A stretch of DNA of 64,000 nt from Escherichia coli (lineage in GTDB: Bacteria; Pseudomonadota; Gammaproteobacteria; Enterobacterales; Enterobacteriaceae), in the NCBI RefSeq assembly GCF_003334315.1, contig NZ_QOWR01000009.1. The stretch is one strand, 5' to 3'. The notes under the pieces are model-generated. The model ran no database searches. It was not told the DNA's origin and saw only the letters and a list, made by a program, of their open reading frames with translations. Of this stretch, positions 2,597-19,395 are shown in pieces. Position 1 is the first letter of the stretch; every line of letters starts with the position of its first letter. The translations under genes and the position numbers were made by a program.

Positions 2597-4630
2597 ATGA
2601 CTCAAGTCGCGAAGAAAATTCTGGTGACGTGCGCACTGCCGTACGCTAACGGCTCAATCCACCTCGGCCATATGCTGGAGCACATCCAGGCTGATGTCTG
2701 GGTCCGTTACCAGCGAATGCGCGGCCACGAGGTCAACTTCATCTGCGCCGACGATGCCCACGGTACACCGATCATGCTGAAAGCTCAGCAGCTTGGTATC
2801 ACCCCGGAGCAGATGATTGGCGAAATGAGTCAGGAGCATCAGACTGATTTCGCAGGCTTTAACATCAGCTATGACAACTATCACTCGACGCACAGCGAAG
2901 AGAACCGCCAGTTGTCAGAACTTATCTACTCTCGCCTGAAAGAGAACGGTTTTATTAAAAACCGCACCATCTCTCAGCTGTACGATCCGGAAAAAGGCAT
3001 GTTCCTGCCGGACCGTTTTGTGAAAGGCACCTGCCCGAAATGTAAATCCCCGGATCAATACGGCGATAACTGCGAAGTCTGCGGCGCGACCTACAGCCCG
3101 ACTGAATTGATCGAGCCGAAATCGGTGGTTTCTGGCGCTACGCCGGTAATGCGTGATTCTGAACACTTCTTCTTTGATCTGCCCTCTTTCAGCGAAATGT
3201 TGCAGGCATGGACCCGCAGCGGTGCGTTGCAGGAGCAGGTGGCAAATAAAATGCAGGAGTGGTTTGAATCCGGCCTGCAACAGTGGGATATCTCCCGCGA
3301 CGCGCCATACTTTGGTTTTGAAATTCCGAACGCGCCGGGCAAATATTTCTACGTCTGGCTGGACGCACCGATTGGCTACATGGGTTCTTTCAAGAATCTG
3401 TGCGACAAGCGCGGCGACAGCGTAAGCTTCGATGAATACTGGAAGAAAGACTCCACCGCCGAACTGTACCACTTCATCGGTAAAGATATCGTTTACTTCC
3501 ACAGCCTGTTCTGGCCTGCCATGCTGGAAGGCAGCAACTTCCGCAAGCCGACCAACCTGTTTGTTCATGGCTATGTGACGGTGAACGGCGCGAAGATGTC
3601 CAAGTCTCGCGGCACCTTTATTAAAGCCAGCACCTGGCTGAATCATTTTGACGCTGACAGCCTGCGTTACTACTACACTGCGAAACTCTCTTCGCGCATT
3701 GATGATATCGATCTCAACCTGGAGGATTTCGTTCAGCGCGTGAATGCCGATATCGTTAACAAAGTGGTTAACCTGGCCTCCCGTAACGCGGGCTTTATCA
3801 ACAAACGTTTTGACGGCGTGCTGGCAAACGAACTGGCTGACCCGCAGTTGTACAAAACCTTCACTGATGCCGCTGAAGTGATTGGTGAAGCGTGGGAAAG
3901 CCGTGAATTTGGTAAAGCTGTGCGCGAAATCATGGCGCTGGCTGATCTGGCTAACCGCTATGTCGATGAACAGGCTCCGTGGGTAGTCGCAAAACAGGAA
4001 GGTCGCGATGCTGACCTGCAGGCGATTTGCTCAATGGGCATCAACCTGTTCCGCGTGCTGATGACTTACCTGAAGCCGGTACTGCCGAAACTGACCGAGC
4101 GTGCAGAAGCCTTCCTCAATACGGAACTGACCTGGGATGGTATCCAGCAACCGCTGCTGGGCCACAAAGTGAATCCGTTCAAGGCGCTGTATAACCGCAT
4201 CGATATGAAACAGGTTGAAGCTCTGGTGGAAGCCTCTAAAGAAGAAGTGAAAGCAGCTGCCGCGCCAGTTACTGGCCCACTGGCAGATGATCCGATTCAG
4301 GAAACCATCACCTTTGACGACTTCGCCAAAGTTGACCTGCGCGTAGCGCTGATCGAAAACGCAGAGTTTGTTGAAGGTTCTGACAAACTGCTGCGCCTGA
4401 CACTGGATCTCGGCGGTGAAAAACGCAATGTCTTCTCCGGTATTCGTTCTGCCTACCCGGATCCGCAGGCACTGATTGGTCGTCACACCATTATGGTGGC
4501 TAACCTGGCACCACGTAAAATGCGCTTTGGAATCTCCGAAGGCATGGTGATGGCTGCCGGTCCAGGCGGGAAAGATATCTTCCTGCTAAGCCCGGATGCT
4601 GGTGCTAAACCGGGTCATCAGGTGAAATAA
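2597..4630 (+). CDS. metG: Methionyl-tRNA synthetase (677 aa)
   Basis: ORF 2588..4630 trimmed to [29 protein letters not shown] (HIGH-type motif HLGH), KMSKS motif present (AKMSKSRG). Confidence 0.97.
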
Positions 4631-4639
4631 TCCCCCTTC

Positions 4640-4670
4640 AAGGCGCTGCATCGACAGCGCCTTTTCTTTA
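4640..4670 (+). terminator. Intrinsic terminator after metG
   Basis: Hairpin aaggcgctg-catcga-cagcgcctt at 4640-4663 followed by ttttcttt. Confidence 0.65.
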
Positions 4671-4770
4671 TAAATTCCTAAAGTTGTTTTCTTGCGATTT
4701 TGTCTCTCTCTAACCCGCATAAATACTGGTAGCATCTGCATTCAACTGGATAAAATTACAGGGATGCAGA

Positions 4771-7700
4771 ATGAGACACTTTATCTATCAGGACGAAAAA
4801 TCACATAAATTCTGGGCGGTGGAGCAACAGGGAAACGAGTTGCATATCAGTTGGGGAAAAGTTGGCACCAAAGGGCAAAGTCAGATAAAAAGTTTTTCAG
4901 ATGCTGCGGCAGCGGAAAAAGCGGAACTTAAGCTGATTGCGGAGAAGGTGAAGAAGGGGTATGTGGAGCAAGCGAAGGATAATTCTTTGCAACCTTCCCA
5001 AACGGTAACGGGCTCTCTCAAGGTAGCGGACTTATCCACCATTATTCAGGAACAACCCTCTTTCGTAGCAGAAACCCGTGCGCCTGACAAAAATACAGAT
5101 GCTGTTTTACCGTGGCTGGCGAAAGATATTGCTGTCGTTTTTCCGCCCGAAGTTGTACACACCACGTTAAGTCATCGCCGCTTTCCCGGAGTTCCTGTTC
5201 AGCAAGCAGACAAATTGACCCAATTACGTCGCTTAGCCTGTAGTGTGTCGCAACGGGATAATAAAACAGCCACATTTGACTTCAGCGCCTGTTCTTTAGA
5301 ATGGCAAAACACCGTCGCCCAGGCGATCAGTCAGATCGACGGCCTGAAAACAACACAGTTACCATCACCAGTAATGGCTGTACTCACGGCACTTGAAATG
5401 AAATGCACAAGATATAAAGTGCGTGAGGATGTTATGGATCAGATCGTCCAGGAAGGCGGTCTGGAATATGCTACTGATGTAATAATACACCTTCAACAGA
5501 TTGATATTGAATGGGATTATGCGAATAATGTCATTATTATTCTGCCGTCTGGCATTGCACCTAGCTACTTGGAGCAATATTCCAGATTTGAATTACGCCT
5601 ACGTAAACATTTATCACTGACGGAAGAGTCTCTCTGGCAAAAATGTGCACAAAAACTTATTGCCGCAATTCCACATATTCCAGAATGGCGGCAACCATTA
5701 ATTGCTTTGTTATTACCCGAAAAACCAGAAATTGCACATGAAATTGCCCAGCGTCTACTGGGGCAAAAAAAATTACCCTCGCTTGAGTGGTTAAAAATAG
5801 TGGCGACTGATGAGCACATTCTTGCCTCATTAGAAAAATATCACGAACCATATGCCATTTTTGATGATTACTATTGTGGTGCGATATGGTCAGCCACCGT
5901 ATTACAGGAGCAAGGTGTTGCAGCCCTGCCCCGATTTGCTCCCTATGCCGCAAGTGACTACTGCGCCGATGTGTTGCGTCATATCAATCATCCGTTCGCA
6001 TTGACACTGCTTATACGTGTAGCCGGGCAAACTAAACGCTGTCACGATCGGATGACGAAAGCCATTGCTGCGTTCCCACATGCAGCAATGGCGGCACTGA
6101 CGGAACTTCTTGGGCAAAAAGAAGAGAACAGTTGGCGCATTATGCTAATGACAATGCTTATCTCACAACCAGCACTGGCAGAACAGGTCATTCCCTGGCT
6201 CTCGACACCCGCAGTTGCCGTACTGAAATCATGCCAGCAACAACTGACACAGCCCTCAAACCATGCCAGCGCCGATCTACTGCCAGCCGTAGTAGTCTCC
6301 CCTCCCTGGCTTTCGAAAAAGAAAAAATCGCCGATTCCGGTGCTGGATTTAGCGCCATTAGGCATTGAGCCAATCTGTTATCTGACAGAAGAAATCAGTA
6401 ATCAACTTTTGGCGAAATATATCTGGTATTCAAAACACATCACGGTTAGCCATGAAGAAAGTACTACCAACCTGTTGGCAAGGATGGGTTTTCAACGACG
6501 GATCGCTGGTACATATATTAAAGCTCCCGAAGCGGTAGTTGAGGCATGGCTAAATGAAGATTATTCAACCTTACTAAGTGAATTTAAGGTGTTTCATTCA
6601 CCTACCGGGCATTATTGGCAGTTGGGGATTTTGACAACATTGCCGCTGGAGAAAGCAGTAAAAGCATGGAATGCCCTTACCCTATCTCCACATACCGATA
6701 CCGAATACTCCATGTTACATTTTGGACTCAAAGGGTTACCTGGGTTAGTAAACTCACTTGCACGCTATCCACAAGAAGCCTTGCCCATCACGAATTACTT
6801 CGCAGCGAGTGAGCTGGCTCCTGCCGTCGCCCGTGCCTTCAACAAACTGAAAACGCTACGCGAAAACGCCCGTAGCTGGCTGTTGAAATACCCGGAACAT
6901 GCCCTTACCGGCCTGCTGCCTGCGGCGCTCGGCAAAGCCGGTGAAGCACAGGATAACGCCCGCGCTGCCTTGCGTATGCTTACCGAAAACGGTCATCAGC
7001 CATTACTGCAAGAAATCGCCCGACGTTATAACCAGCCGGAAGTAACCGATGCGGTGAACGCTCTGCTTGCGCTCGATCCCTTAGATAATCACCCGACAAA
7101 AATCCCCACTCTTCCGGCCTTTTATCAGCCATCGCTCTGGACGCGCCCGGTATTAAAAGCAAATGCCCAATCACTGCCAGATAGCGCCCTCCTCCACCTC
7201 GGTGAAATGCTCCGCTTCCCTCAGGAAGAGGCTCTGTATCCGGGATTATTGCAGGTGAAAGACGTCTGTTCCGCCGACTCACTGGCGGGATTTGCCTGGG
7301 ATCTGTTTACCGCCTGGCAGACCGCTGGCGCGCCGTCGAAAGAGAGTTGGGCGTTCACTGCGTTAGGCGTTCTCGGTAACGATGACACCGCCCGCAAACT
7401 GACGCCATTAATACGCGCCTGGCCTGGTGAATCCCAGCATAAACGCGCCACCGTTGGGTTGGATATTCTCGCTGCTATCGGTAGTGATATCGCCCTTATG
7501 CAGCTTAACGGCATCGCCCAGAAACTGAAATTCAAAGCATTACAGGAGCGGGCAAAAGAAAAAATTGCCGACATTGCCGAGAGCCGCGAACTCACGGTGG
7601 CGGAGCTTGAAGATCGGTTAGCACCGGATCTCGGTCTGGATGATAACGGTTCGCTGCTGCTGGATTTTGGCCCACGGCAGTTCACCGTCAGCTTTGATGA

Positions 7701-8565
7701 AACCTTAAAACCGTTTGTGCGTGATGTTTCCGGCAGCCGCCTGAAGGACCTGCCCAAACCGAACAAAAGCGATGATGAAACGCGGGCGAACGATGCGGTT
7801 AACCGCTACAAATTGCTGAAAAAAGATGCGCGTACCATCGCCGCCCAGCAGGTAGCAAGGCTGGAATCCGCCATGTGCCTGCGCCGCCGCTGGTCGCTGG
7901 AAAACTTCCAGCTCTTCCTGGTTGAGCATCCGCTGGTTCGTCACTTAACCCGCCGTCTGATTTGGGGCGTTTATAGCGCCGAAAACCAGCTACTGGCTTG
8001 CTTTCGCGTAGCAGAAGATAACAGCTCCAGCACCGCTGACGATGATCTTTTCACCCTGCCGGAAGGCGATATCTCTATCGGCACTCCTCACGTTCTGGAA
8101 ATATCACCAACGGATGCTGCCGCCTTTGGTCAGCTTTTTGCCGACTACGAACTGCTACCACCGTTCCGCCAGCTCGACCGTAACAGCTACGCCCTGACAG
8201 AAGCCGAGCGCAATGCCAGTGAACTGACCCGCTGGGCAGGCAGAAAATGCCCGAGTGGTCGGGTCATGGGGCTGGCGAATAAAGGCTGGATAAAGGGCGA
8301 ACCACAGGATGGAGGCTGGATCGGATGGATGATCAAACCTTTGGGTCGCTGGTCGTTAATCATGGAAATCGATGAAGGCTTTGCGGTAGGCATGTCGCCA
8401 GCCGAACTCAGCGCTGAGCAGCTCTTAAGCAAGCTGTGGCTATGGGAAGGCAAAGCAGAAAGATATGGCTGGGGGAGTAATTCAACACAGGAAGCGCAGT
8501 TCTCCGTAATCGATGCCATCACCGCCAGCGAGCTAATTAACGATATTGAAGCCCTGTTTGAATAA
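4771..8565 (+). CDS. yehH: Large MolR-like protein with N-terminal WGR domain (1264 aa), intact
   Basis: Single uninterrupted ORF; N-terminus MRHFIYQDEKSHKFWAVEQQGNELHISWGKVGTKGQ shows the W-G-K/R signature of WGR domains; remainder paralogous to downstream YehI. Confidence 0.85.
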   Translation: MRHFIYQDEKSHKFWAVEQQGNELHISWGKVGTKGQSQIKSFSDAAAAEKAELKLIAEKVKKGYVEQAKDNSLQPSQTVTGSLKVADLSTIIQEQPSFVAETRAPDKNTDAVLPWLAKDIAVVFPPEVVHTTLSHRRFPGVPVQQADKLTQLRRLACSVSQRDNKTATFDFSACSLEWQNTVAQAISQIDGLKTTQLPSPVMAVLTALEMKCTRYKVREDVMDQIVQEGGLEYATDVIIHLQQIDIEWDYANNVIIILPSGIAPSYLEQYSRFELRLRKHLSLTEESLWQKCAQKLIAAIPHIPEWRQPLIALLLPEKPEIAHEIAQRLLGQKKLPSLEWLKIVATDEHILASLEKYHEPYAIFDDYYCGAIWSATVLQEQGVAALPRFAPYAASDYCADVLRHINHPFALTLLIRVAGQTKRCHDRMTKAIAAFPHAAMAALTELLGQKEENSWRIMLMTMLISQPALAEQVIPWLSTPAVAVLKSCQQQLTQPSNHASADLLPAVVVSPPWLSKKKKSPIPVLDLAPLGIEPICYLTEEISNQLLAKYIWYSKHITVSHEESTTNLLARMGFQRRIAGTYIKAPEAVVEAWLNEDYSTLLSEFKVFHSPTGHYWQLGILTTLPLEKAVKAWNALTLSPHTDTEYSMLHFGLKGLPGLVNSLARYPQEALPITNYFAASELAPAVARAFNKLKTLRENARSWLLKYPEHALTGLLPAALGKAGEAQDNARAALRMLTENGHQPLLQEIARRYNQPEVTDAVNALLALDPLDNHPTKIPTLPAFYQPSLWTRPVLKANAQSLPDSALLHLGEMLRFPQEEALYPGLLQVKDVCSADSLAGFAWDLFTAWQTAGAPSKESWAFTALGVLGNDDTARKLTPLIRAWPGESQHKRATVGLDILAAIGSDIALMQLNGIAQKLKFKALQERAKEKIADIAESRELTVAELEDRLAPDLGLDDNGSLLLDFGPRQFTVSFDETLKPFVRDVSGSRLKDLPKPNKSDDETRANDAVNRYKLLKKDARTIAAQQVARLESAMCLRRRWSLENFQLFLVEHPLVRHLTRRLIWGVYSAENQLLACFRVAEDNSSSTADDDLFTLPEGDISIGTPHVLEISPTDAAAFGQLFADYELLPPFRQLDRNSYALTEAERNASELTRWAGRKCPSGRVMGLANKGWIKGEPQDGGWIGWMIKPLGRWSLIMEIDEGFAVGMSPAELSAEQLLSKLWLWEGKAERYGWGSNSTQEAQFSVIDAITASELINDIEALFE

Positions 8566-8574
8566 GGAAAGAGC

Positions 8575-11500
8575 ATGGACAAGGAATTACCGTGGCTGGC
8601 GGATAACGCCCAACTGGAACTGAAATATAAAAAAGGCAAAACGCCGCTCAGTCATCGTCGCTGGCCGGGCGAACCAGTGTCCGTTATCACTGGAAGTCTC
8701 ATCCAGACATTGGGTGATGAATTGCTACAAAAAGCTGAGAAGAAAAAAAACATTGTCTGGCGTTATGAGAATTTTTCACTGGAGTGGCAGTCCGCCATCA
8801 CGCAGGCCATCAACTTGATCGGCGAACACAAACCCTCAATCCCGGACCGGACAATGGCGGCGCTAGCCTGTATCGCGCAAAATGACAGCCAACAGTTGCT
8901 CGACGAAATCGTCCAACAAGAGGGGCTGGAATATGCGACTGAGGTGGTGATTGCACGCCAGTTTATTGCGCGGTGTTATGAGAGTGATCCTCTGGTAGTG
9001 ACATTGCAGTATCAGGACGAGGATTATGGCTATGGTTATCGCTCAGAAACCTATAACGAATTCGATCTCCGACTGCGTAAGCATCTCTCTCTGGCAGAGG
9101 AAAGCTGCTGGCAGCGTTGCGCCGACAAACTCATTGCCGCACTACCAGGAATAACCAAAGTTCGCCGCCCTTTTATTGCGCTGATCCTCCCGGAAAAACC
9201 AGAAATAGCCAATGAGTTGGTAGGCCTTGAATGCCCGCGAACTCATTTTCATTCTAAGGAGTGGTTAAAAGTTGTTGCTAATGACCCCACAGCGGTGAGA
9301 AAACTCGAACACTACTGGAGCCAGGATATATTTAGCGATCGAGAAGCCAGCTACATGTCGCATGAAAACCACTTCGGCTACGCGGCCTGCGCCGCCCTTT
9401 TGCGCGAACAAGGACTGGCAGCCATTCCGCGCCTCGCGATGTATGCCCATAAAGAAGATTGCGGCAGTCTGCTGGTACAAATTAACCATCCGCAAGTCAT
9501 CCGCACCTTGCTACTGGTGGCTGATAAAAACAAACCCAGCCTGCAACGTGTAGCTAAATACCATAAAAACTTCCCCCATGCGACGCTCGCCGCACTGGCA
9601 GAACTGCTGGCGTTAACAGAACCACCAGCCCGCCCTGGTTATCCAATCATCGAAGACAAAAAGCTGCCTGCACAGCAAAAAGCACGCGATGAATACTGGC
9701 GTACGCTGTTACAAACGCTGATGGCATCGCAGCCACAACTGGCAGCAGAAGTGATGCCGTGGTTAAGTACTCAACCCCAGTCAGTGCTGAAGAGTTATTT
9801 ATCGGCACCGCCCAAACCGGTTATTGATGGCACCGATAACAGCAATCTGCCAGAAATCCTCGTTTCACCACCGTGGCGTAGTAAGAAAAAAATGACAGCT
9901 CCACGTCTTGATTTGGCACCGCTCGAATTAACTCCGCAAGTTTACTGGCAACCAGGCGAACAAGAGAGGCTTGCCGCCACTGAGCCTGCCCGTTATTTCA
10001 GCACGGAATCTCTTGCGCAACGCATGGAACAAAAAAGTGGACGAGTTGTATTACAGGAACTGGGTTTTGGGGATGATGTATGGCTGTTTCTGAATTATAT
10101 ACTCCCCGGAAAACTGGATGCTGCACGCAATTCACTCTTTGTTCAGTGGCATTACTACCAGGGGCGGGTTGAAGAGATCCTGAATGGCTGGAACTCCCCG
10201 GAAGCACAATTAGCAGAACAGGCGCTCCGCAGCGGTCACATAGAAGCGTTAATTAACATATGGGAAAATGACAACTACTCACATTATCGTCCGGAAAAGA
10301 GTGTCTGGAACCTGTATTTATTGGCACAGTTGCCGCGTGAGATGGCTTTGACCTTCTGGCTGCGTATCAATGAGAAAAAGCATCTGTTCGCGGGTGAGGA
10401 CTATTTTCTCAGTATCCTCGGATTGGATGCGCTACCAGGTCTGCTGTTGGCTTTTTCACATCGTCCAAAAGAAACATTTCCGTTAATTTTAAATTTTGGC
10501 GCAACAGAACTGGCGCTGCCTGTTGCCCACGTCTGGCGACGTTTCGCGGCGCAGCGTGATCTGGCTCGCCAGTGGATTTTACAATGGCCGGAACATACGG
10601 CTAGTGCACTTATCCCTCTTGTCTTTACCAAACCCAGCGATAATAGCGAAGCCGCATTACTTGCCCTGCGTTTACTGTACGAACAGGGACATGGCGAATT
10701 GCTACAAACCGTGGCAAACCGCTGGCAGCGTACAGATGTATGGTCTGCCCTGGAGCAGTTGCTTAAACAGGGTCCAATGGACATTTACCCGGCACGCATT
10801 CCAAAAGCCCCTGATTTCTGGCATCCGCAAATGTGGTCCAGGCCGCGCCTTATCACTAATAATCAAACTGTTACCAATGACGCTCTGGAAATTATCGGCG
10901 AAATGCTGCGCTTTACCCAGGGGGGACGTTTTTATAGCGGGCTGGAACAACTGAAAACGTTCTGCCAGCCACAAACGCTGACAGCTTTTGCCTGGGATCT
11001 CTTCACTGCGTGGCAACAAGCTGGTGCCCCCGCAAAAGACAACTGGGCATTTCTGGCGTTAAGTCTCTTTGGTGACGAAAGCACGGCACGGGATCTGACG
11101 ACACAGATCCTCGCCTGGCCACAAGAAGGCAAATCTGCCCGTGCTGTCAGCGGCCTGAACATCCTTACCCTGATGAATAATGATATGGCGCTGATACAGC
11201 TGCATCATATATCGCAACGGGCTAAATCCCGCCCCTTACGTGATAACGCGGCGGAATTTCTTCAGGTGGTCGCAGAAAATCGCGGGCTAAGCCAGGAAGA
11301 GCTAGCGGACAGATTAGTCCCAACCCTGGGCCTTGATGATCCGCAGGCGTTGAGTTTTGATTTTGGTCCCCGGCAGTTTACCGTTCGCTTCGATGAAAAT
11401 CTCAACCCGGTTATCTTTGATCAGCAAAACGTTCGCCAGAAAAGCGTTCCCCGTTTGCGCGCCGATGACGATCAACTGAAAGCGCCCGAGGCACTGGCCC

Positions 11501-12207
11501 GACTAAAAGGGCTAAAAAAAGATGCTACTCAGGTGAGCAAAAACCTGCTCCCGCGTCTTGAAACGGCCCTACGTACCACCCGACGCTGGTCGCTGGCAGA
11601 TTTTCATTCTCTGTTTGTTAATCATCCCTTTACCCGTCTGGTTACCCAGCGATTAATATGGGGGGTTTATCCGGCAAATGAACCGCGTTGTTTACTCAAA
11701 GCCTTTCGTGTGGCCGCAGAGGGGGAGTTCTGCAATGCGCAAGATGAGCCAATTGACCTGCCTGCGGACGCTCTGATTGGCATTGCCCACCCGTTAGAAA
11801 TGACAGCAGAAATGCGCAGTGAATTTGCACAGCTTTTTGCCGATTACGAAATTATGCCGCCTTTTCGCCAGTTGTCGCGCCGCACGGTGCTGCTCACACC
11901 TGACGAGTCAACCAGTAACAGCCTGACTCGCTGGGAAGGTAAATCCGCTACCGTTGGGCAACTTATGGGAATGCGATACAAAGGCTGGGAGTCAGGCTAT
12001 GAGGACGCATTTGTCTATAACCTGGGTGAGTACCGGCTGGTCCTTAAGTTTTCACCCGGTTTTAACCACTACAATGTTGATAGCAAAGCGCTAATGAGCT
12101 TCCGTTCTCTTCGAGTGTACCGTGACAATAAATCCGTCACTTTTGCCGAACTTGATGTGTTTGATTTGAGTGAGGCGTTAAGCGCACCTGACGTCATTTT
12201 CCATTAA
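8575..12207 (+). CDS. yehI: Large uncharacterised protein YehI (1210 aa), paralogue of YehH lacking the WGR N-terminus
   Basis: ORF 8575..12207, 1210 aa; extensive colinear similarity with YehH (e.g. DLRLRKHLSLAEES..., SPPWRSKKK, FAWDLFTAWQQAGAP, FDFGPRQFTV, FAQLFADYEIMPPFRQL). Confidence 0.85.
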   Translation: MDKELPWLADNAQLELKYKKGKTPLSHRRWPGEPVSVITGSLIQTLGDELLQKAEKKKNIVWRYENFSLEWQSAITQAINLIGEHKPSIPDRTMAALACIAQNDSQQLLDEIVQQEGLEYATEVVIARQFIARCYESDPLVVTLQYQDEDYGYGYRSETYNEFDLRLRKHLSLAEESCWQRCADKLIAALPGITKVRRPFIALILPEKPEIANELVGLECPRTHFHSKEWLKVVANDPTAVRKLEHYWSQDIFSDREASYMSHENHFGYAACAALLREQGLAAIPRLAMYAHKEDCGSLLVQINHPQVIRTLLLVADKNKPSLQRVAKYHKNFPHATLAALAELLALTEPPARPGYPIIEDKKLPAQQKARDEYWRTLLQTLMASQPQLAAEVMPWLSTQPQSVLKSYLSAPPKPVIDGTDNSNLPEILVSPPWRSKKKMTAPRLDLAPLELTPQVYWQPGEQERLAATEPARYFSTESLAQRMEQKSGRVVLQELGFGDDVWLFLNYILPGKLDAARNSLFVQWHYYQGRVEEILNGWNSPEAQLAEQALRSGHIEALINIWENDNYSHYRPEKSVWNLYLLAQLPREMALTFWLRINEKKHLFAGEDYFLSILGLDALPGLLLAFSHRPKETFPLILNFGATELALPVAHVWRRFAAQRDLARQWILQWPEHTASALIPLVFTKPSDNSEAALLALRLLYEQGHGELLQTVANRWQRTDVWSALEQLLKQGPMDIYPARIPKAPDFWHPQMWSRPRLITNNQTVTNDALEIIGEMLRFTQGGRFYSGLEQLKTFCQPQTLTAFAWDLFTAWQQAGAPAKDNWAFLALSLFGDESTARDLTTQILAWPQEGKSARAVSGLNILTLMNNDMALIQLHHISQRAKSRPLRDNAAEFLQVVAENRGLSQEELADRLVPTLGLDDPQALSFDFGPRQFTVRFDENLNPVIFDQQNVRQKSVPRLRADDDQLKAPEALARLKGLKKDATQVSKNLLPRLETALRTTRRWSLADFHSLFVNHPFTRLVTQRLIWGVYPANEPRCLLKAFRVAAEGEFCNAQDEPIDLPADALIGIAHPLEMTAEMRSEFAQLFADYEIMPPFRQLSRRTVLLTPDESTSNSLTRWEGKSATVGQLMGMRYKGWESGYEDAFVYNLGEYRLVLKFSPGFNHYNVDSKALMSFRSLRVYRDNKSVTFAELDVFDLSEALSAPDVIFH

Positions 12208-12267
12208 AACACAGCGGGCAGTGATGCAACTGCCCGTTATCAACACGACTTACCAGCGGGGAAAGCG

Positions 12268-12585
12268 ATGATCGTGCAAAAAGAGCTGGTTGCTATTTAC
12301 GATTATGAGGTCCCTGTACCTGAAGATCCGTTTTCCTTCAGACTTGAGATCCATAAATGCTCTGAATTATTTACAGGTTCCGTCTATCGACTGGAGCGAT
12401 TCCGGCTACGTCCAACATTTCATCAACGTGATCGAGAAGATGCTGACCCGCTAATAAATGATGCGTTGATTTATATAAGAGATGAGTGTATTGATGAGCG
12501 GAAATTACGAGGTGAATCACCTGAAACTGTAATAGCAATTTTTAATCGTGAACTACAGAATATATTCAACCAAGAAATAGAATAA
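12268..12585 (+). CDS. yehK: Small uncharacterised protein YehK (105 aa)
   Basis: ORF 12268..12585 preceded by RBS-like gggaaagcg; AT-richer than flanking genes. Confidence 0.65.
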   Translation: MIVQKELVAIYDYEVPVPEDPFSFRLEIHKCSELFTGSVYRLERFRLRPTFHQRDREDADPLINDALIYIRDECIDERKLRGESPETVIAIFNRELQNIFNQEIE

Positions 12586-12662
12586 TATACTCTAAATAAT
12601 TCAAATTGGTCCGATCCGGCGCACCGTCCCAATGGCCTGGATTATAAATCTCATTATCTTAA

Positions 12663-12691
12663 TTGCAACGGGGTCCAGCCGTGGTTATAAT
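12663..12691 (+). promoter_or_regulatory. Near-consensus sigma70-type promoter (TTGCAA - 17 bp - TATAAT)
   Basis: -35 ttgcaa 12663-12668, 17-bp spacer, perfect -10 tataat 12686-12691. Confidence 0.4.
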
Positions 12692-12756
12692 TCGTTCGTT
12701 GGAACACGATGTTGCACAGGCTGTGGTGTTAGGCCTGAAAATAGTAAATAAAAGAA

Positions 12757-12781
12757 CCTGCCTCACCAGCAGGTTTTTTTA
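12757..12781 (+). terminator. Intrinsic terminator in yehK-yehL intergenic region
   Basis: Stem cctgc / gcagg with loop ctcacca (12757-12773) followed by 8 T (12774-12781). Confidence 0.5.
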
Positions 12782-12891
12782 TTTACTGTGATCTGCTTTC
12801 CAGATATTTTTCGCTCAAACAACTAATGCGCCAAACATTTATTGCGCGTAAAATATCGTTTATTTCATTAATACATTTCAGGGATGAATAT

Positions 12892-13979
12892 ATGTCACCG
12901 CAGAATAATCATCTGCAGCGTCCGCCTGCTGCTGTGTTATACGCCGATGAACTGGCAAAATTAAAACAAAATGATAACGCACCTTGCCCGCCCGGTTGGC
13001 AGTTAAGTTTGCCTGCGGCCCGTGCTTTTATCCTTGGCGACGAAGCGCAAAATATCAGCCGTAAAGTGGTGATTAGCCCCTCCGCTGTCGAACGTATGTT
13101 AGTCACTCTTGCTACCGGCCGCGGTTTGATGTTGGTGGGGGAACCGGGTACCGCAAAATCTCTTCTTTCTGAATTACTGGCAACCGCTATTAGCGGCGAT
13201 GCCGGGTTAACCATCCAGGGCGGGGCATCTACCACCGAAGATCAAATCAAGTATGGCTGGAACTACGCCCTGCTTATCAATCATGGTCCGTCAACGGAAG
13301 CGCTGGTCCCTGCCCCGCTTTATCAGGGAATGCGCGACGGCAAAATCGTCCGTTTCGAAGAGATAACGCGTACACCGCTGGAAGTGCAGGACTGTCTGTT
13401 AGGTATGCTTTCTGACAGGGTGATGACGGTGCCGGAACTCACTGGTGAAGCCAGTCAGCTCTATGCGCGAGAAGGCTTTAATATTATTGCCACTGCCAAT
13501 ACCCGCGATCGCGGCGTCAATGAAATGAGTGCTGCGCTAAAGCGTCGCTTCGATTTTGAAACGGTTTTTCCGATTATGGATTTCGCCCAGGAGTTGGAAC
13601 TGGTCGCCAGTGCTTCGGCGCGTTTGCTGGCCCATAGCGGTATTCCGCATAAAGTGCCTGACGCGGTACTGGAATTACTGGTCCGCACCTTCCGCGATCT
13701 GCGTGCCAACGGCGAAAAGAAAACGTCAATGGATACACTGACAGCGATTATGTCCACCGCTGAAGCCGTGAACGTGCCCATGCTGTGGGCGTCCGCGCCT
13801 GGTTTTTAGCGAATCGCGCGGGGGAGCCTGCCGACCTGGTGGAATGTATTGCCGGAACCATCGTCAAAGATAACGAAGAAGATCGCGCGCGTCTGCGCCG
13901 TTACTTCGAACAGCGTGTCGCCACACATAAAGAAGCTCACTGGCAGGCTTATTATCAAGCCCGCCACCGCCTGCCGTGA
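12892..13979 (+). pseudogene. yehL: MoxR-type AAA+ ATPase YehL, disrupted by apparent 1-nt deletion (frame A ends at TAG 13807-13809; remainder continues in -1 frame to 13979)
   Basis: ORF 12826..13809 trimmed to MSPQNNH at 12892; Walker A LVGEPGTAKS (~13138-13161). The -1 frame is open from 13764 to TGA 13977-13979; joined length equals 362 codons, matching my recollection of K-12 YehL. T5 run at 13803-13807 is the likely indel site. Confidence 0.6.
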
Positions 13980-13989
13980 GGAAAGATGC

Positions 13990-16269
13990 ATGAGCGAGCC
14001 GTTAATTGTCGGCATCCGGCATCATAGTCCGGCCTGCGCCCGGCTGGTGAAATCGTTAATCGAAAGCCAGCGGCCACGATACGTGTTGATTGAAGGCCCG
14101 GCTGATTTTAATGACCGGGTAGACGAACTGTTTTTAGCCCACCAGCTTCCGGTAGCTATTTACAGTTATTGCCAGTATCAGGACGGTGCAGCCCCCGGGC
14201 GTGGTGCCTGGACGCCATTTGCTGAATTTTCGCCGGAGTGGCAGGCGCTACAAGCCGCACGTCGCATTCAGGCACAAACTTACTTCATCGATTTGCCTTG
14301 CTGGGCGCAGAGTGAAGAAGAGGACGATTCGCCTGATACGCAAGATGAAAGCCAGGCCTTACTGCTGCGTGCCACCCGCATGGATAACAGCGATACCCTG
14401 TGGGATCACTTGTTCGAAGATGAAAGCCAGCAAACTGCATTACCCTCTGCGCTGGCGCACTATTTTGCCCAACTGCGGGGCGACGCCTCCGGCGATGCGC
14501 TCAATCGTCAGCGCGAAGCCTTTATGGCCCGCTGGATTGGATGGGCGATGCAGCAAAATAATGGCGACGTGTTAGTTGTCTGCGGTGGCTGGCACGCTCC
14601 GGCACTGGCAAAGATGTGGCGCGAATGCCCTCAGAAAATTAACAAGCCAGAATTGCCCTCGCTGGCAGATGCCGTTACAGGTTGTTATCTCACACCCTAC
14701 AGTGAAAAGCGCCTTGATGTGCTGGCAGGATACCTTTCAGGAATGCCTGCCCCGGTATGGCAAAACTGGTGCTGGCAGTGGGGCTTGCAGAAGGCCGGTG
14801 AACAACTGCTAAAAACTATCCTTACCCGTTTGCGCCAGCACAAATTGCCCGCTTCTACCGCGGATATGGCTGCCGCTCATCTGCATGCGATGGCGCTGGC
14901 ACAGTTGCGCGGTCATACACTACCGTTACGCACTGACTGGCTGGATGCCATAGCAGGCTCGCTGATTAAAGAAGCCCTGAACGCGCCGTTGCCGTGGAGC
15001 TATCGCGGCGTTATTCATCCCGATACCGATCCGATTCTGCTAACGTTGATAGACACATTAGCGGGTGACGGATTCGGTAAACTTGCCCCTTCTACGCCAC
15101 AACCGCCTCTGCCAAAAGATGTCACCTGCGAACTGGAACGTACCGCAATCTCCCTTCCGGCGGAGCTTACCTTAAATCGCTTTACCCCCGATGGGCTGGC
15201 GCAAAGTCAGGTGTTACATCGGCTGGCAATACTGGAGATCCCTGGGATTGTACGCCAGCAGGGAAGTACACTGACACTTGCAGGCAACGGTGAAGAACGC
15301 TGGAAATTAACCCGCCCGCTTAGCCAGCATGCGGCATTGATTGAGGCCGCCTGTTTTGGTGCCACACTCTAGGAAGCCGCACGCAATAAATTAGAAGCCG
15401 ATATGCTGGACGCGGGCGGAATCGGCAGTATCACCACATGTCTTAGCCAGGAGGCGTTAGCGGGTCTGGCGTCCTTCAGTCAACAATTACTGGAGCAACT
15501 CACACTATTAATCGCCCAGGAAAATCAATTTGCCGAAATGGGCCAGGCGCTGGAAGTGCTTTATGCCTTATGGCGGCTGGATGAAATTAGCGGTATGCAA
15601 GGCGCGCAGATATTACAAACGACGTTATGCGCGACTATCGATCGCACGCTGTGGCTGTGTGAATCTAACGGCAGACCGGATGAAAAGGAGTTTCACGCTC
15701 ACCTGCATAGCTGGCAAGCGCTTTGCCATATTCTGCGCGATCTACATAGCGGCGTTAATTTACCCGGCGTTTCTCTTTCTGCGGCGGTAGCCTTACTGGA
15801 GCGACGCAGTCAGGCAATTCATGCCCCGGCGCTGGATCGCGGCGCGGCTCTTGGCGCACTAATGCGTCTGGAACATCCCAACGCCAGTGCCGAAGCGGCG
15901 CTGACGATGCTGGCGCAGTTATCCCCGGCACAATCTGGTGAGGCGCTGCACGGTTTGCTGGCGCTGGCCCGCCATCAACTGGCCTGTCAGCCGGCATTTA
16001 TCGCCGGTTTCAGCAGTCATTTAAATCAACTGAGTGAAGCCGATTTTATTAACGCCCTGCCCGATTTACGCGCGGCGATGGCCTGGCTACCACCACGAGA
16101 ACGCGGGACGCTGGCGCATCAGGTGCTTGAGCATTATCAACTGGCGCAACTTCCCGTTTCGGCGCTGCAAATGCCGTTGCATTGTCCACCACAGGCCATT
16201 GCACATCATCAACAACTCGAACAGCAGGCACTGGCATCGCTGCAAAACTGGGGAGTTTTCCATGTCTGA
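13990..16269 (+). pseudogene. yehM: Large uncharacterised protein YehM with in-frame amber codon (TAG 15370-15372); two ORF halves 13990..15372 and 15373..16269 in the same frame
   Basis: ORFs 13849..15372 and 15403..16269 are in the same reading frame separated only by TAG; read-through length 759 codons equals my recollection of K-12 YehM. Start at MSEPLIVGIRHHSP (13990). Confidence 0.6.
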
Positions 16270-17398
16270 ACTGAACGATCTTCTGACCACCCGTGAGCTA
16301 CAACGCTGGCGATTAATTCTTGGCGAAGCGGCAGAAACGACGCTTTGTGGGCTGGATGACAACGCCCGGCAGATAGACCACGCGCTGGAGTGGCTGTATG
16401 GGCGCGATCCTGAACGGCTCCAGCGTGGTGAACGTTCCGGTGGATTAGGTGGCTCAAATCTCACCACCCCTGAGTGGATCAACAGTATTCACACGCTGTT
16501 TCCGCAGCAGGTGATTGAGCGGCTGGAAAGCGATGCCGTGCTGCGCTACGGCATTGAAGATGTGGTGACGAATCTCGACGTGCTGGAACGTATGCAGCCT
16601 TCTGAAAGCCTGCTACGCGCTGTTTTGCACACCAAACATCTGATGAACCCCGAAGTACTGGCTGCCGCCCGCCGGATAGTGTGCCAGGTTGTTGAAGAAA
16701 TTATGGCTCGACTGGCAAAGGAAGTTCGTCAGGCTTTTTCTGGTGTCCGCGATCGCCGTCGCCGTTCATTTATTCCACTGGCGCGAAACTTTGATTTCAA
16801 AAGTACTCTGCGCGCCAACCTGCAACACTGGCACCCGCAACACGGCAAGTTGTATATCGAATCCCCCCGCTTTAACAGCCGCATTAAACGCCAAAGCGAA
16901 CAATGGCAACTGGTCTTACTGGTTGATCAAAGCGGATCGATGGTCGATTCGGTGATCCACTCTGCGGTGATGGCGGCCTGTTTGTGGCAGTTACCCGGCA
17001 TTCGTACCCATCTGGTGGCGTTTGACACAAGCGTCGTTGATCTCACGGCAGACGTTGCCGATCCGGTAGAGTTATTAATGAAAGTACAGTTGGGCGGCGG
17101 GACCAATATCGCCAGTGCCGTGGAGTATGGTCGGCAACTTATTGAACAACCAGCGAAAAGCGTCATTATCCTCGTGAGCGATTTTTACGAAGGGGGTTCA
17201 TCATCATTACTGACGCATCAGGTGAAAAAGTGTGTCCAGAGCGGCATCAAAGTGCTGGGACTGGCAGCGCTCGATAGCACCGCAACACCTTGCTATGACC
17301 GCGATACGGCCCAGGCGCTGGTTAATGTCGGCGCACAAATAGCCGCCATGACGCCGGGCGAGCTGGCATCATGGCTTGCGGAGAATCTTCAGTCATGA
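16262..17398 (+). CDS. yehP: von Willebrand factor A (vWA) domain protein YehP (378 aa)
   Basis: ORF trimmed to MSELNDLLTTRELQRW at 16262 (ATG 8 nt upstream of the yehM stop); MIDAS-like motif DQSGS (~16925-16939). Confidence 0.88.
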   Translation: MSELNDLLTTRELQRWRLILGEAAETTLCGLDDNARQIDHALEWLYGRDPERLQRGERSGGLGGSNLTTPEWINSIHTLFPQQVIERLESDAVLRYGIEDVVTNLDVLERMQPSESLLRAVLHTKHLMNPEVLAAARRIVCQVVEEIMARLAKEVRQAFSGVRDRRRRSFIPLARNFDFKSTLRANLQHWHPQHGKLYIESPRFNSRIKRQSEQWQLVLLVDQSGSMVDSVIHSAVMAACLWQLPGIRTHLVAFDTSVVDLTADVADPVELLMKVQLGGGTNIASAVEYGRQLIEQPAKSVIILVSDFYEGGSSSLLTHQVKKCVQSGIKVLGLAALDSTATPCYDRDTAQALVNVGAQIAAMTPGELASWLAENLQS

Positions 17399-19395
17399 AT
17401 TCACTACGTCCGGAATTATTAGAACTGACACCGCAGGCCCTGACGGCGTTAAGCAATGCCGGTTTTGTTAAGCGCAGTCTTAAGGAACTGGAAAATGGCA
17501 ACGTCCCGGAGATCAGCCATGAGAACGACGCTTTAATCGCCACCTTCAGTGACGGTGTCCGTACCCAGCTGGCGAACGGCCAGGCACTGAAAGAGGCTCA
17601 GTGCAGTTGCGGGGCCAACGGTATGTGCCGTCATCGCGTGATGCTGGTGTTAAGTTATCAACGACTTTGTGCCACCACTCAGTCTACGGAAAAAGAAGAA
17701 GAGTGGGATCCGGCAATCTGGCTGGAAGAACTGGCTACCCTTCCCGATGCTACCCGCAAACGCGCACAGGCGCTGGTCGCTAAAGGCATCACCATTGAGT
17801 TGTTCTGTGCGCCGGGTGAAATTCCCTCTGCCCGCTTACCGATGAGCGATGTGCGTTTTTATTCCCGCAGCAGTATTCGTTTCGCCCGTTGTGATTGTAT
17901 TGAAGGCACACTTTGCGAACATGTCGTACTGGCGGTACAGGCCTTCGTCGAGGCCAAAGCGCAGCAAGCAGAATTTAACCATTTAATCTGGCAGATGCGC
18001 AGCGAACACGTCACATCATCTGACGATCCGTTTGCCAGCGAAGAAGGCAACGCGTGTCGTCAATATGTTCAGCAATTAAGCCAGACATTATGGCTTGGCG
18101 GCATCAGCCAGCCGCTCATCCATTACGAGGCAGCATTCAACCGCGCATTGCAGGCGGCAGAGACCTGCAACTGGCGCTGGGTGAGTGAATCGCTACGGCA
18201 ACTGCGCGCCAGCGTTGATGCCTTCCACGCCCGCGCCAGCCACTATAATGCCGGAGAATGCTTACATCAGCTTGCGGCATTAAACAGTCGATTAAATTGC
18301 GCACAAGAGATGGCCCGGCGCGACAGTATTGGTGAAGTTCCTCCTGTGCCGTGGCGCACGGTCGTTGGCTCTGGCATTGCCGGAGAAGCAAAGCTTGATC
18401 ATCTGCGGCTGGTGTCTTTAGGTATGCGTTGCTGGCAGGATATTGAGCATTATGGTTTACGCATCTGGTTTACCGATCCCGACACCGGCAGTATTTTGCA
18501 CCTTTCGCGCAGTTGGCCGCGAAGTGAACAGGAAAACTCACCGGCAGCTACGCGTCGGCTGTTTAGTTTTCAGGCTGGCGCACTGGCGGGCGGGCAAATT
18601 GTTTCACAAGCAGCAAAACGCAGTGCCGATGGCGAGCTGCTGTTAGCTACCCGCAACCGCTTAAGCAGCGTTGTGCCGCTGTCGCCTGATGCCTGGCAAA
18701 TGTTGAGCGCGCCGTTACGCCAGCCGGGCATTGTGGCTTTGCGGGAATATTTACGCCAGCGTCCCCCCGCCTGCATACGGCCTCTTAATCAGGTCGATAA
18801 CTTATTTATTCTGCCGGTCGCTGAGTGTATTTCGCTCGGTTGGGACAGCAGCCGCCAGACGCTGGATGCGCAGGTCATTAGCGGCGAAGGGGAAGATAAT
18901 GTGCTGACGTTATCATTACCAGCCTCAGCCAGCGCACCTTATGCCGTTGAACGCATGGCGGTGCTTTTGCAACAAACAGACGACCCCGTGTGTCTGGTTT
19001 CTGGCTTTGTCAGTTTTGTTGAAGGGCAATTGACACTGGAACCACGGGTGATGATGACAAAAACCCGTGCCTGGGCGCTGGACGCAGAAACTACGCCTGT
19101 GGCACCGCTACCTTCTGCCAGCGTTTTGCCTGTGCCGTCTACTGCTCATCAGTTGCTGATACGCTGCCAGGCGTTACTTATTCAACTGCTCCATAACGGC
19201 TGGCGCTATCAGGAACAGAGTGCTATTGGTCAGGCAGAGTTGCTGGCGAATGACCTCACCGCGGTGGGTTTTTATCGGCTGGCACATGTGTTGGGACAAT
19301 TTCGTAATACAGAAAGCGAGGCACGGGTAGAAGCAATGAATAACGGTGTTTTGCTTTGCGAACAATTATTCCCCATGCTTCAGCAACAAGGATGA
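17395..19395 (+). CDS. yehQ: SWIM zinc-finger protein YehQ
   Basis: ORF trimmed to MNSLRPELLEL at 17395 (ATGA overlap with yehP stop); two CxCx5CxH motifs: CSCGANGMCRH and CDCIEGTLCEH. Confidence 0.85.
   Translation: MNSLRPELLELTPQALTALSNAGFVKRSLKELENGNVPEISHENDALIATFSDGVRTQLANGQALKEAQCSCGANGMCRHRVMLVLSYQRLCATTQSTEKEEEWDPAIWLEELATLPDATRKRAQALVAKGITIELFCAPGEIPSARLPMSDVRFYSRSSIRFARCDCIEGTLCEHVVLAVQAFVEAKAQQAEFNHLIWQMRSEHVTSSDDPFASEEGNACRQYVQQLSQTLWLGGISQPLIHYEAAFNRALQAAETCNWRWVSESLRQLRASVDAFHARASHYNAGECLHQLAALNSRLNCAQEMARRDSIGEVPPVPWRTVVGSGIAGEAKLDHLRLVSLGMRCWQDIEHYGLRIWFTDPDTGSILHLSRSWPRSEQENSPAATRRLFSFQAGALAGGQIVSQAAKRSADGELLLATRNRLSSVVPLSPDAWQMLSAPLRQPGIVALREYLRQRPPACIRPLNQVDNLFILPVAECISLGWDSSRQTLDAQVISGEGEDNVLTLSLPASASAPYAVERMAVLLQQTDDPVCLVSGFVSFVEGQLTLEPRVMMTKTRAWALDAETTPVAPLPSASVLPVPSTAHQLLIRCQALLIQLLHNGWRYQEQSAIGQAELLANDLTAVGFYRLAHVLGQFRNTESEARVEAMNNGVLLCEQLFPMLQQQG

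What the first reader, a model, noticed from the sequence alone, without database searches (positions are those of the whole stretch)
15370..15372. In-frame amber (TAG) codon splitting yehM into 460- and 298-codon halves
ORFs 13849..15372 and 15403..16269 share one reading frame and are separated only by TAG at 15370-15372 (...CFGATL * EAARNKLEADMLD...). Read-through length from the MSEPLIVG start is 759 codons, the length I recall for K-12 YehM, so a sense codon (for example TGG, CAG, TAC or TAT) has probably mutated to amber. Together with the yehL lesion, two adjacent genes of the same module are disrupted, which hints at selection against an active system, though sequencing error or suppression cannot be excluded.
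Basis: partly seen in the sequence, partly recalled or inferred. Interest (0 to 1): 0.6.

Follow-up and report, generated by a model that had tools for sequence, protein, structure and literature searches.

The report
Inherited amber stop in yehM
A real, inherited C-to-T mutation at a DNA-methylation hotspot turned glutamine codon 461 of the E. coli gene yehM into a stop codon, making one more ordinary dead gene in a cluster that is broken in many E. coli strains.

Summary
TAG at 15370-15372 interrupts an otherwise full-length yehM (13990-16269, 759 codons) at codon 461. K-12 and every other intact allele examined read CAG (Gln), so the change is C>T at 15370. The ancestral context CTC-CAG-GAA contains CCAGG, a Dcm methylation site, and the mutated base is its inner cytosine. 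This is the classic 5-methylcytosine deamination route to amber codons. The stop is not a sequencing error: the exact 460-aa product is on record from at least 24 contigs from several submitters. One Logan contig (SRR3824135) matches the window base for base over 21 kb. One draft genome differs over 15.5 kb only in having an intact yehL, so the yehL frameshift came after the amber. Other TAG-bearing genomes carry different second lesions, in yehI or yehH. Of 53 window genes checked, only yehL and yehM are broken. Intact yehM and yehP alleles show purifying selection (dN/dS 0.08 and 0.03). Even so, lesions in the yehH-yehQ cluster appear in most sampled complete genomes, including an independent yehL plus yehM double hit. 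The best reading is an ordinary pseudogene followed by stepwise decay. Adaptive loss and suppression remain untested. Interest is low.

The parts
15370..15372 (+). Amber codon TAG replacing Gln461 (CAG) of yehM; C>T at 15370
   Evidence: K-12, BUCT2930, 027_SK3 and EC812A1 all have CAG here. The window, SRR3824135, GCA_004172665, GCA_025412885 and ERR972103 have TAG.
15369..15373 (+). Former Dcm site: ancestral CCAGG, now CTAGG. The mutated base is the inner cytosine, the one Dcm methylates.
   Evidence: Only 7 of 273 possible single-base nonsense changes in yehM are Dcm-site deaminations, and the observed change is one of them.
13990..15372 (+). yehM 5' part: 460 codons plus the new stop. It encodes the N-terminal 60% of a DUF5682 protein.
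   Evidence: exact product P0046, on 27 contigs; Pfam PF18934 hit.
15373..16269 (+). yehM 3' remnant of 298 codons. It contains an ATG-initiated ORF, 15403-16269 (288 aa), with only a weak GAAG Shine-Dalgarno-like element upstream.
   Evidence: exact product P0076 is on 20 contigs.
15452..15452 (+). C>A, Ala488Glu, in the no-longer-translated part of yehM. It is present only in the window/GCA_004172665 sub-lineage, so it is younger than the amber. It lies immediately 3' of another CCAGG.
12892..13979 (+). yehL (AAA_5 / MoxR-type ATPase) with a 1-bp deletion (GTGGCCC to GTGCCC at 13774-13779). The frameshift is at codon 295 of 362, with a premature stop at 13807-13809.
   Evidence: The exact 305-aa product is on only 2 contigs. 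GCA_004172665 is identical to the window over 15.5 kb except for this base.
16262..17398 (+). yehP (vWA protein), intact. Its start overlaps the yehM stop by 8 nt, so it is exposed to polarity and loss of translational coupling.
17395..19395 (+). yehQ (SWIM zinc-finger protein), intact, with the lineage-specific change Ala523Val (C>T at 18962).
4771..12207 (+). yehH (WGR + DUF4132, 4771-8565) and yehI (DUF4132, 8575-12207), both intact here. Lineage-specific changes are 7746 (synonymous) and 10981 (Ala803Thr).

Best explanation
yehM in this strain is a true, vertically inherited nonsense pseudogene. Shown: the first base of Gln codon 461 (CAG) changed C>T, and the allele is carried by a set of natural E. 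coli isolates. Inferred: the change most likely arose by spontaneous deamination of the Dcm-methylated inner cytosine of a CCAGG site that escaped very-short-patch repair. RF1 termination at UAG would then give a 460-residue fragment lacking about 40% of the single DUF5682 domain. About 900 nt of untranslated mRNA upstream of the overlapping yehP start would weaken yehP and yehQ expression through polarity and lost translational coupling. With the module already non-functional, and silenced by H-NS in K-12, the rest of the yehH-yehQ cluster would be free of constraint. Shown: further lesions then accumulated independently in sub-lineages. In the window's own terminal branch this was the 1-bp frameshift in yehL.
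For: C>T at 15370 versus K-12 and three other intact alleles. The ancestral context is CCAGG, with the inner C mutated. The exact 460-aa product is on 27 contigs, is listed in 44 blocks of the collection, and has NCBI, ENA and Logan sources. The SRR3824135 contig is 100% identical to window 3990-25372. GCA_004172665 differs only by an intact yehL. GCA_025412885 and ERR972103 carry TAG but lack the four later substitutions and the yehL deletion. Their second lesions differ: yehI stop at codon 909 in GCA_025412885, and yehH stop at codon 275 plus a frameshift in ERR972103. All 51 other genes checked in the window are intact. DUF5682 spans residues 20-715 as one model. Intact alleles show purifying selection: yehM has 19 synonymous and 5 nonsynonymous differences (dN/dS 0.08), and yehP has 23 and 2 (0.03). 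The lineage-specific changes are 1 synonymous, 3 missense and 1 frameshift (Fisher p = 0.005 against yehM+yehP, 0.046 against all cluster genes). Decay of this cluster is common elsewhere. Examples are K-12 yehH and yehQ (E615*), EC812A1 yehH and yehI, CT29 yehI, G8 yehH, A65EC yehI and yehQ, ARS-C101 yehM, UTAK-12 yehH, and MRSN346647 yehL plus yehM S224*. [quoted passage not shown]
Against: The Dcm mechanism is inferred from sequence context only; neither dcm activity nor methylation in this strain was tested. TAG sits on two haplotype backgrounds. The window and GCA_004172665 share 8846A and 12624C with the TAG-free BUCT2930. GCA_025412885 and ERR972103 share 8846C and 12624A with K-12. So either recombination or a second independent origin is needed, and the evidence does not say which. 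Loss of function of the truncated product, polarity on yehP/yehQ and absence of suppression are all inferred, not measured. The relaxed-constraint statistics rest on five changes. Some pseudogene calls in the sampled genomes could be assembly errors, for example the T9 to T8 run in ARS-C101.
Confidence: 0.85

Rival explanations
1. Adaptive loss. The yehLMPQ module (MoxR-type ATPase, DUF5682, vWA, SWIM) is costly or harmful when active, or when partly active, so inactivating mutations are positively selected. The amber and the yehL frameshift would then be selected hits rather than neutral decay.
For: Two adjacent genes of one operon are the only broken genes among 53 checked. By length, a random second lesion would fall in yehLMPQ with probability about 0.10. 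The only difference from the nearest relative over 15.5 kb is the yehL frameshift. The distant strain MRSN346647 independently carries a yehL 11-bp deletion plus yehM S224*. TAG occurs on two haplotype backgrounds. There are many independent yehM knock-outs.
Against: Intact yehM and yehP alleles are strongly conserved (dN/dS 0.08 and 0.03), so the genes are maintained in many lineages. Second lesions in the TAG haplotypes are spread over yehL, yehI and yehH rather than focused on one partner, and one haplotype has none. A mutational hotspot plus recombination explains the haplotype pattern without selection. The operon is H-NS-silenced in K-12, which would lower both its cost and its benefit. 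No fitness data exist.
Confidence: 0.2
2. The gene is still functional. Either the amber is read through by a suppressor tRNA (a glnV/supE-type suppressor would even restore Gln), or translation restarts at ATG 15403 and the 460-aa and 288-aa fragments work together as a split DUF5682 protein.
For: An in-frame ATG lies 31 nt after the stop, and the 288-aa ORF is intact. Both fragments still hit PF18934. The reading frame downstream has stayed open in all TAG haplotypes examined.
Against: There is no tRNA gene in the window, although the rest of the genome could not be examined. Only a weak GAAG Shine-Dalgarno-like element precedes ATG 15403, and ten residues (462-471) would be lost. DUF5682 is modelled as one continuous domain, and all intact alleles seen are single genes. 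After the amber, a non-conservative A488E change arose in the downstream part, and yehL was frameshifted. That is as expected if the module is no longer under constraint.
Confidence: 0.06
3. Sequencing or assembly error: the true sequence has CAG, and yehM is intact.
For: No complete RefSeq genome has the identical 63-mer. The window's source and read support are unknown.
Against: The exact truncated protein is on record from at least 24 contigs in NCBI, ENA and Logan, from different projects (SRR3824135, ERR972103, GCA_025412885.1, GCA_004172665.1 and others). An independent read-based assembly is identical to the window over 21.4 kb. The change is a substitution outside any homopolymer. The other 51 genes checked have intact frames.
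Confidence: 0.02

Closest known systems
Amber mutational hotspots at Dcm sites (CCAGG to CTAGG) in E. coli lacI (Coulondre, Miller, Farabaugh and Gilbert 1978; cited from my own knowledge, not retrieved here)
   Same: The sequence event is the same: the inner cytosine of CCAGG, in frame as C-CAG-G, changes to T and converts a Gln codon to amber.
   Different: Here it is a natural allele fixed in a wild lineage of a chromosomal gene of unknown function, not a laboratory-selected lacI mutant. Methylation and deamination are inferred, not measured.
K-12 pseudogenes in the same cluster: yehQ (E615*, GAG to TAG) and yehH/molR (frameshift and internal stop)
   Same: Same cluster and same kind of lesion: a single-base amber or a 1-bp indel in an otherwise full-length gene.
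   Different: Different genes and sites. The window has yehH and yehQ intact and yehL and yehM broken, the reverse of K-12.
Other natural yehM knock-out alleles: Q407* (annotated in some genomes as 'putative yehO'), S224* with a yehL 11-bp deletion in MRSN346647, a frameshift at codon 50 in ARS-C101, and an IS5 insertion in HNSQ2209
   Same: These are independent inactivations of the same gene. One strain also has yehL hit in parallel.
   Different: The positions and mutational routes differ. Q407* is in TCAGG, not a Dcm site. S224* is a C>A transversion.
Shigella sonnei lineage 2/3 deletion of about 7 kb that includes yehM and yehL (PMC12795559)
   Same: Loss of the same two genes in a related lineage.
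   Different: It is a deletion associated with IS-rich DNA rather than point lesions.
MoxR AAA+ / vWA partner systems (for example RavA-ViaA, CoxD-CoxE, NorQ-NorD; from my own knowledge)
   Same: YehL hits AAA_5 and is named a MoxR family ATPase in one RefSeq record. YehP hits VWA_CoxE and VWA_2. The two are co-operonic.
   Different: The extra DUF5682 (YehM), SWIM (YehQ) and WGR/DUF4132 (YehH, YehI) partners have no characterised counterpart. No function is known. There is no PADLOC hit, no PDB relative of YehM, and no paper mentioning DUF5682 in the library.

Membership tests
yehM orthologue (DUF5682 family protein), pseudogene allele | Orthologous position between yehL and yehP, with the yehP start overlapping the yehM stop | tested here: met
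   The gene order yehH-yehI-yehK-yehL-yehM-yehP-yehQ-yehR matches K-12 and BUCT2930. The overlap is at 16262-16269.
yehM orthologue (DUF5682 family protein), pseudogene allele | Full-length similarity to the 759-aa YehM and to Pfam DUF5682 | tested here: met
   The sequence is 2280 nt and differs from the common allele at 2 positions, Q461* and A488E. PF18934 covers residues 20-715 with E = 3e-98 in the intact allele.
yehM orthologue (DUF5682 family protein), pseudogene allele | Uninterrupted reading frame, as needed for a functional member | tested here: not met
   There is an internal TAG at codon 461. It is therefore filed as a pseudogene allele, not a functional member.
Dcm-site 5-methylcytosine deamination hotspot mutation | The ancestral sequence is CCWGG and the change is C>T at the inner cytosine | tested here: met
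   The ancestral sequence is ACACTCCAGGAAGCC and the window has ACACTCTAGGAAGCC.
Dcm-site 5-methylcytosine deamination hotspot mutation | The strain has an active Dcm methylase and the site is methylated | not testable with these tools
   The dcm gene lies outside the 64-kb window, and no methylation data are available.
MoxR AAA+ / vWA two-partner module | A MoxR-class AAA+ ATPase gene co-operonic with a vWA-domain protein gene | tested here: met
   YehL hits PF07728 AAA_5. YehP hits PF05762 VWA_CoxE and PF13519 VWA_2. One RefSeq record names YehL 'MoxR family ATPase'. NCBIfam gives only weak sub-threshold hits, to GvpN and MadB.
Known or candidate anti-phage defence system (PADLOC-DB v2) | Any of the seven cluster proteins matches a PADLOC model | tested here: not met
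   All of YehH, I, K, L, M, P and Q gave 0 families at E <= 0.01.
Suppressed amber or programmed read-through | A suppressor tRNA with a CUA anticodon is present in the genome | tested here: inconclusive
   ARAGORN finds no tRNA gene in the window. The rest of the genome is not available.

The most novel reading that the evidence does not exclude
The same Dcm-hotspot amber (Q461*) arose more than once on different haplotype backgrounds. The repeated yehL plus yehM double knock-outs (this lineage and MRSN346647) would then reflect positive selection to silence a costly MoxR-vWA-DUF5682-SWIM module with WGR/DUF4132 partners. That module might be an uncharacterised conflict or defence-like system whose partial forms are harmful.
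Probability: 0.1. Interest if true: 0.45.

Novelty: new member of a known kind. Interest (0 to 1): 0.15.

Why it matters
It matters little by itself. This is one more natural nonsense allele in a non-essential E. coli gene of unknown function. Three modest points of value remain.

1. It is a clean natural example of the textbook Dcm-hotspot route to an amber codon.

2. The nested haplotypes give an ordered record of decay. The amber came first, then different second hits in yehL, yehI or yehH. This supports treating yehH-yehQ as one functional unit.

3. Frequent independent loss alongside strong purifying selection on intact alleles suggests the cluster's benefit is conditional. That could guide anyone trying to assign it a function.

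For annotation, the two ORFs 13990-15372 and 15403-16269 should be merged as one pseudogene rather than called as two hypothetical proteins, as some public records do.

Tried and rejected
**Sequencing error.** Rejected after exact-sequence look-ups and contig retrieval.

**A generally low-quality or hypermutated window.** Rejected. The other 51 genes checked have intact frames, and differences from the nearest genomes are sparse and evenly spread.

**K-12 derivative with a laboratory amber.** Rejected. The window differs from MG1655 at 12 sites in 18 kb and has intact yehH and yehQ, unlike K-12.

**Natural two-gene architecture at this position.** Rejected. All intact alleles seen are single 759-codon genes, and DUF5682 is one continuous model.

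**Known defence system.** No PADLOC hit.

**Solved structure or literature on YehM/DUF5682.** None found. The paper search returned only irrelevant author-name matches.

**Suppressor tRNA in the window.** None found, which is uninformative for the rest of the genome.

**Whether the independent Q407* allele also sits at a Dcm site.** It does not; the context is TCAGG. The hotspot therefore explains this allele only, not yehM nonsense alleles in general.

**Single versus double origin of the TAG.** I could not resolve this. Only two informative sites (8846 and 12624) separate the backgrounds, and both lie upstream of the TAG, in a region with obvious recombination blocks.

Full report
**Observation.** The window has TAG at 15370-15372. 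Translating 13990-16269 in one frame gives 759 codons with a single internal stop at codon 461, in the context ...CFGATL*EAARNKLEADMLD.... The ORF list shows 13849..15372 and 15403..16269 in the same frame. In K-12 MG1655 the orthologous interval is one CDS, yehM, of 2280 nt, annotated 'DUF5682 family protein' and lying between yehL and yehP.

**Ancestral state.** A gapped comparison of the window with 18.3 kb of MG1655 gives 10 substitutions and two 1-bp deletions. One substitution is C>T at 15370, so CAG (Gln461) became TAG. BUCT2930, 027_SK3 and EC812A1 also have CAG. A 63-nt probe centred on the TAG has no identical match in 5,426 complete RefSeq E. coli genomes, and 1,255 records fall in the 95-99% identity band, the best at one mismatch. 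This excludes the allele only on this exact local haplotype. The yehL lesion is loss of one G from GTGGCCC (window 13774-13779). It shifts the frame at codon 295 of 362 and stops translation at 13807-13809. It too has no identical 63-mer in the complete genomes.

**Is it real?** Yes.
- The exact 460-aa N-terminal product is in the 15-billion-protein collection on 27 contigs, with NCBI, ENA and Logan sources (HBV0125923.1, HCO6562690.1, HDD9142398.1).
- The exact 288-aa downstream ORF product is on 20 contigs.
- The window's exact 305-aa YehL frameshift product is on only 2 contigs.
- Contig retrieval lists the 460-aa protein in 44 blocks of the collection, and 24 contigs were read.
- A Logan assembly of run SRR3824135 is identical to window 3990-25372, with both lesions.
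- GCA_004172665.1 differs from the window over 15.5 kb by one base only: it keeps the yehL G.
- GCA_025412885.1 and ERR972103 have the same TAG. They lack the yehL deletion and four substitutions of the window's sub-lineage: 7746 (yehH, synonymous), 10981 (yehI A803T), 15452 (yehM A488E) and 18962 (yehQ A523V).

The order of events is therefore amber first, then those four substitutions, then the yehL frameshift on the terminal branch. Of 53 genes checked across the window, only yehL and yehM are disrupted, which argues against a generally error-prone sequence.

**Mutational mechanism (inferred).** The ancestral context is ACA CTC CAG GAA, which contains CCAGG, a Dcm recognition site. The mutated base is its inner cytosine, giving CTAGG. 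From established knowledge, Dcm methylates that cytosine, and deamination of 5-methylcytosine gives thymine. This is the classic source of amber hotspots in lacI (Coulondre et al. 1978, cited from memory). yehM has 8 CCWGG sites. Only 7 of the 273 possible single-base nonsense changes in the gene are of this type, and the observed change is one of them. Dcm activity and methylation in this strain could not be tested. A hotspot also makes recurrence plausible. That matters because TAG sits on two backgrounds. The window and GCA_004172665 share 8846A and 12624C with the TAG-free BUCT2930. The other two TAG genomes share 8846C and 12624A with K-12. Either one recombination breakpoint between 12624 and 15370 or a second origin would explain this. 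The region upstream shows clear recombination blocks. I could not separate the two explanations.

**Consequence (inferred).** Pfam DUF5682 covers YehM residues 20-715 as one model, so the stop removes about 40% of the domain. The yehP start overlaps the yehM stop (16262-16269). About 900 nt of untranslated message now lie upstream of that start. Polarity and loss of translational coupling on yehP and yehQ are therefore likely. An in-frame ATG at 15403 could allow restart, but it is preceded by only a weak GAAG element. There is no tRNA gene in the window, so suppression cannot be judged. The later non-conservative A488E change in the downstream part and the yehL frameshift fit a module no longer under constraint.

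**Decay or selection?**
- Intact alleles are conserved. Between BUCT2930 and EC812A1, yehM has 19 synonymous and 5 nonsynonymous differences (dN/dS 0.08) and yehP has 23 and 2 (0.03). yehH and yehI are looser, at about 0.3.
- The five changes specific to the window's lineage are 1 synonymous, 3 missense and 1 frameshift. Fisher p is 0.005 against yehM+yehP and 0.046 against all cluster genes, on small numbers.
- Second lesions differ among TAG haplotypes: yehL frameshift (window), yehI stop at codon 909 (GCA_025412885), yehH stop at codon 275 plus a frameshift (ERR972103), and none (GCA_004172665).
- Lesions in this cluster are common in complete genomes sampled down the similarity ranking. 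Only BUCT2930, 027_SK3, AF51 and Z22-7 are fully intact.
  - Lesions in yehH, yehI or yehQ: K-12 has yehH and yehQ (E615*) broken, EC812A1 yehH and yehI, CT29 yehI, G8 yehH (IS421), A65EC yehI and yehQ, and UTAK-12 yehH.
  - Lesions in yehL or yehM: ARS-C101 has a yehM frameshift, and MRSN346647 has a yehL 11-bp deletion plus yehM S224*.
  - Lesions in yehK: four strains, among them Nissle 1917, carry a yehK frameshift.
- Further yehM knock-outs include Q407* (in TCAGG, not a Dcm site) and an IS5 insertion.
[quoted passage not shown] They are deleted in Shigella sonnei lineages 2 and 3 (PMC12795559).

The simplest reading is relaxed or conditional constraint with stepwise decay. Positive selection for loss is possible, and the independent yehL plus yehM double hit in MRSN346647 is suggestive, but it is not demonstrated.

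**What the module is.** YehL hits AAA_5 and is named a MoxR family ATPase in one RefSeq record. YehP hits VWA_CoxE and VWA_2. YehQ hits SWIM faintly. YehH hits WGR and DUF4132, and YehI hits DUF4132. None of the seven proteins matches PADLOC. NCBIfam gives only sub-threshold hits. YehM has no PDB relative, and no paper in the library mentions DUF5682. The module resembles MoxR-vWA partner systems, but its function is unknown.

**Verdict.** The feature is a real, inherited nonsense pseudogene. It was probably generated at a methylation hotspot, in a gene cluster that is often degraded across E. coli. It is a new allele of a well-known kind and of low interest (0.15). The most novel reading not excluded is recurrent, selected silencing of an uncharacterised MoxR-vWA-DUF5682-SWIM module. 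I give it about 0.1 probability.

Noticed in passing
window 63548-64000: The window ends in the first 453 bp of an IS1 element, 66 bp beyond the rihB start codon (rihB is 62540-63481, minus strand). It is 99.8% identical to an IS1B copy that sits at a different place in strain EC812A1. This IS1 explains the roughly 37 matching places per genome in the search.
   Followed up: partly
window 17395-19395 (yehQ) and 4771-8565 (yehH): Both genes are intact here but are pseudogenes in K-12 MG1655. K-12 yehQ has GAG to TAG at codon 615 (window 19237 is G, K-12 has T). K-12 yehH has an extra G relative to the window after window position 7615, and RefSeq flags it as frameshifted with an internal stop. 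The window and K-12 thus carry complementary sets of dead genes in the same cluster.
   Followed up: yes
window 15452: The later C>A change (A488E) lies immediately 3' of a second CCAGG Dcm site (yehM nt 1458-1462). This could be coincidence, or an error of the short repair patch made by very-short-patch repair. Nothing here tests that.
   Followed up: no
L021 (NZ_CP018206.1, strain MRSN346647) 12204-15571: This distantly related strain (about 94.5% identity) independently has both yehL (11-bp deletion) and yehM (S224*, TCG to TAG) disrupted. These are the same gene pair as in the window. It also carries an extra DUF4132 gene upstream of yehH.
   Followed up: partly
L006 and L007 versus window 3990-10800: The TAG-bearing genomes GCA_025412885.1 and ERR972103 differ from the window in dense SNP blocks in the 3' end of metG, yehH and yehI (for example 3994-4600, 8373-8703 and 10497-10782). 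Downstream they are almost identical to the window. This looks like recombination tracts and complicates dating the amber.
   Followed up: partly
L011-L013; proteins P0048 and P0079: A separate natural amber allele of yehM, Q407* (AGT CAG GTG to AGT TAG GTG), splits the gene into 406-aa and 352-aa ORFs. Some public records name the downstream piece 'putative yehO'.
   Followed up: yes
L018-L020, between yehK and yehL (for example L018 7818-9001): Several non-K-12-like strains have about 0.9-1.2 kb between yehK and yehL with no annotated gene. The window and K-12 have about 300 bp there. The content of this extra DNA was not examined.
   Followed up: no
L022-L025 (Nissle 1917, CU532-9, E1, Ecol_656), yehK: All four sampled genomes at about 94% identity to the window have yehK flagged as frameshifted (317 nt instead of 318). 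This looks like a lineage-wide allele rather than independent events.
   Followed up: no
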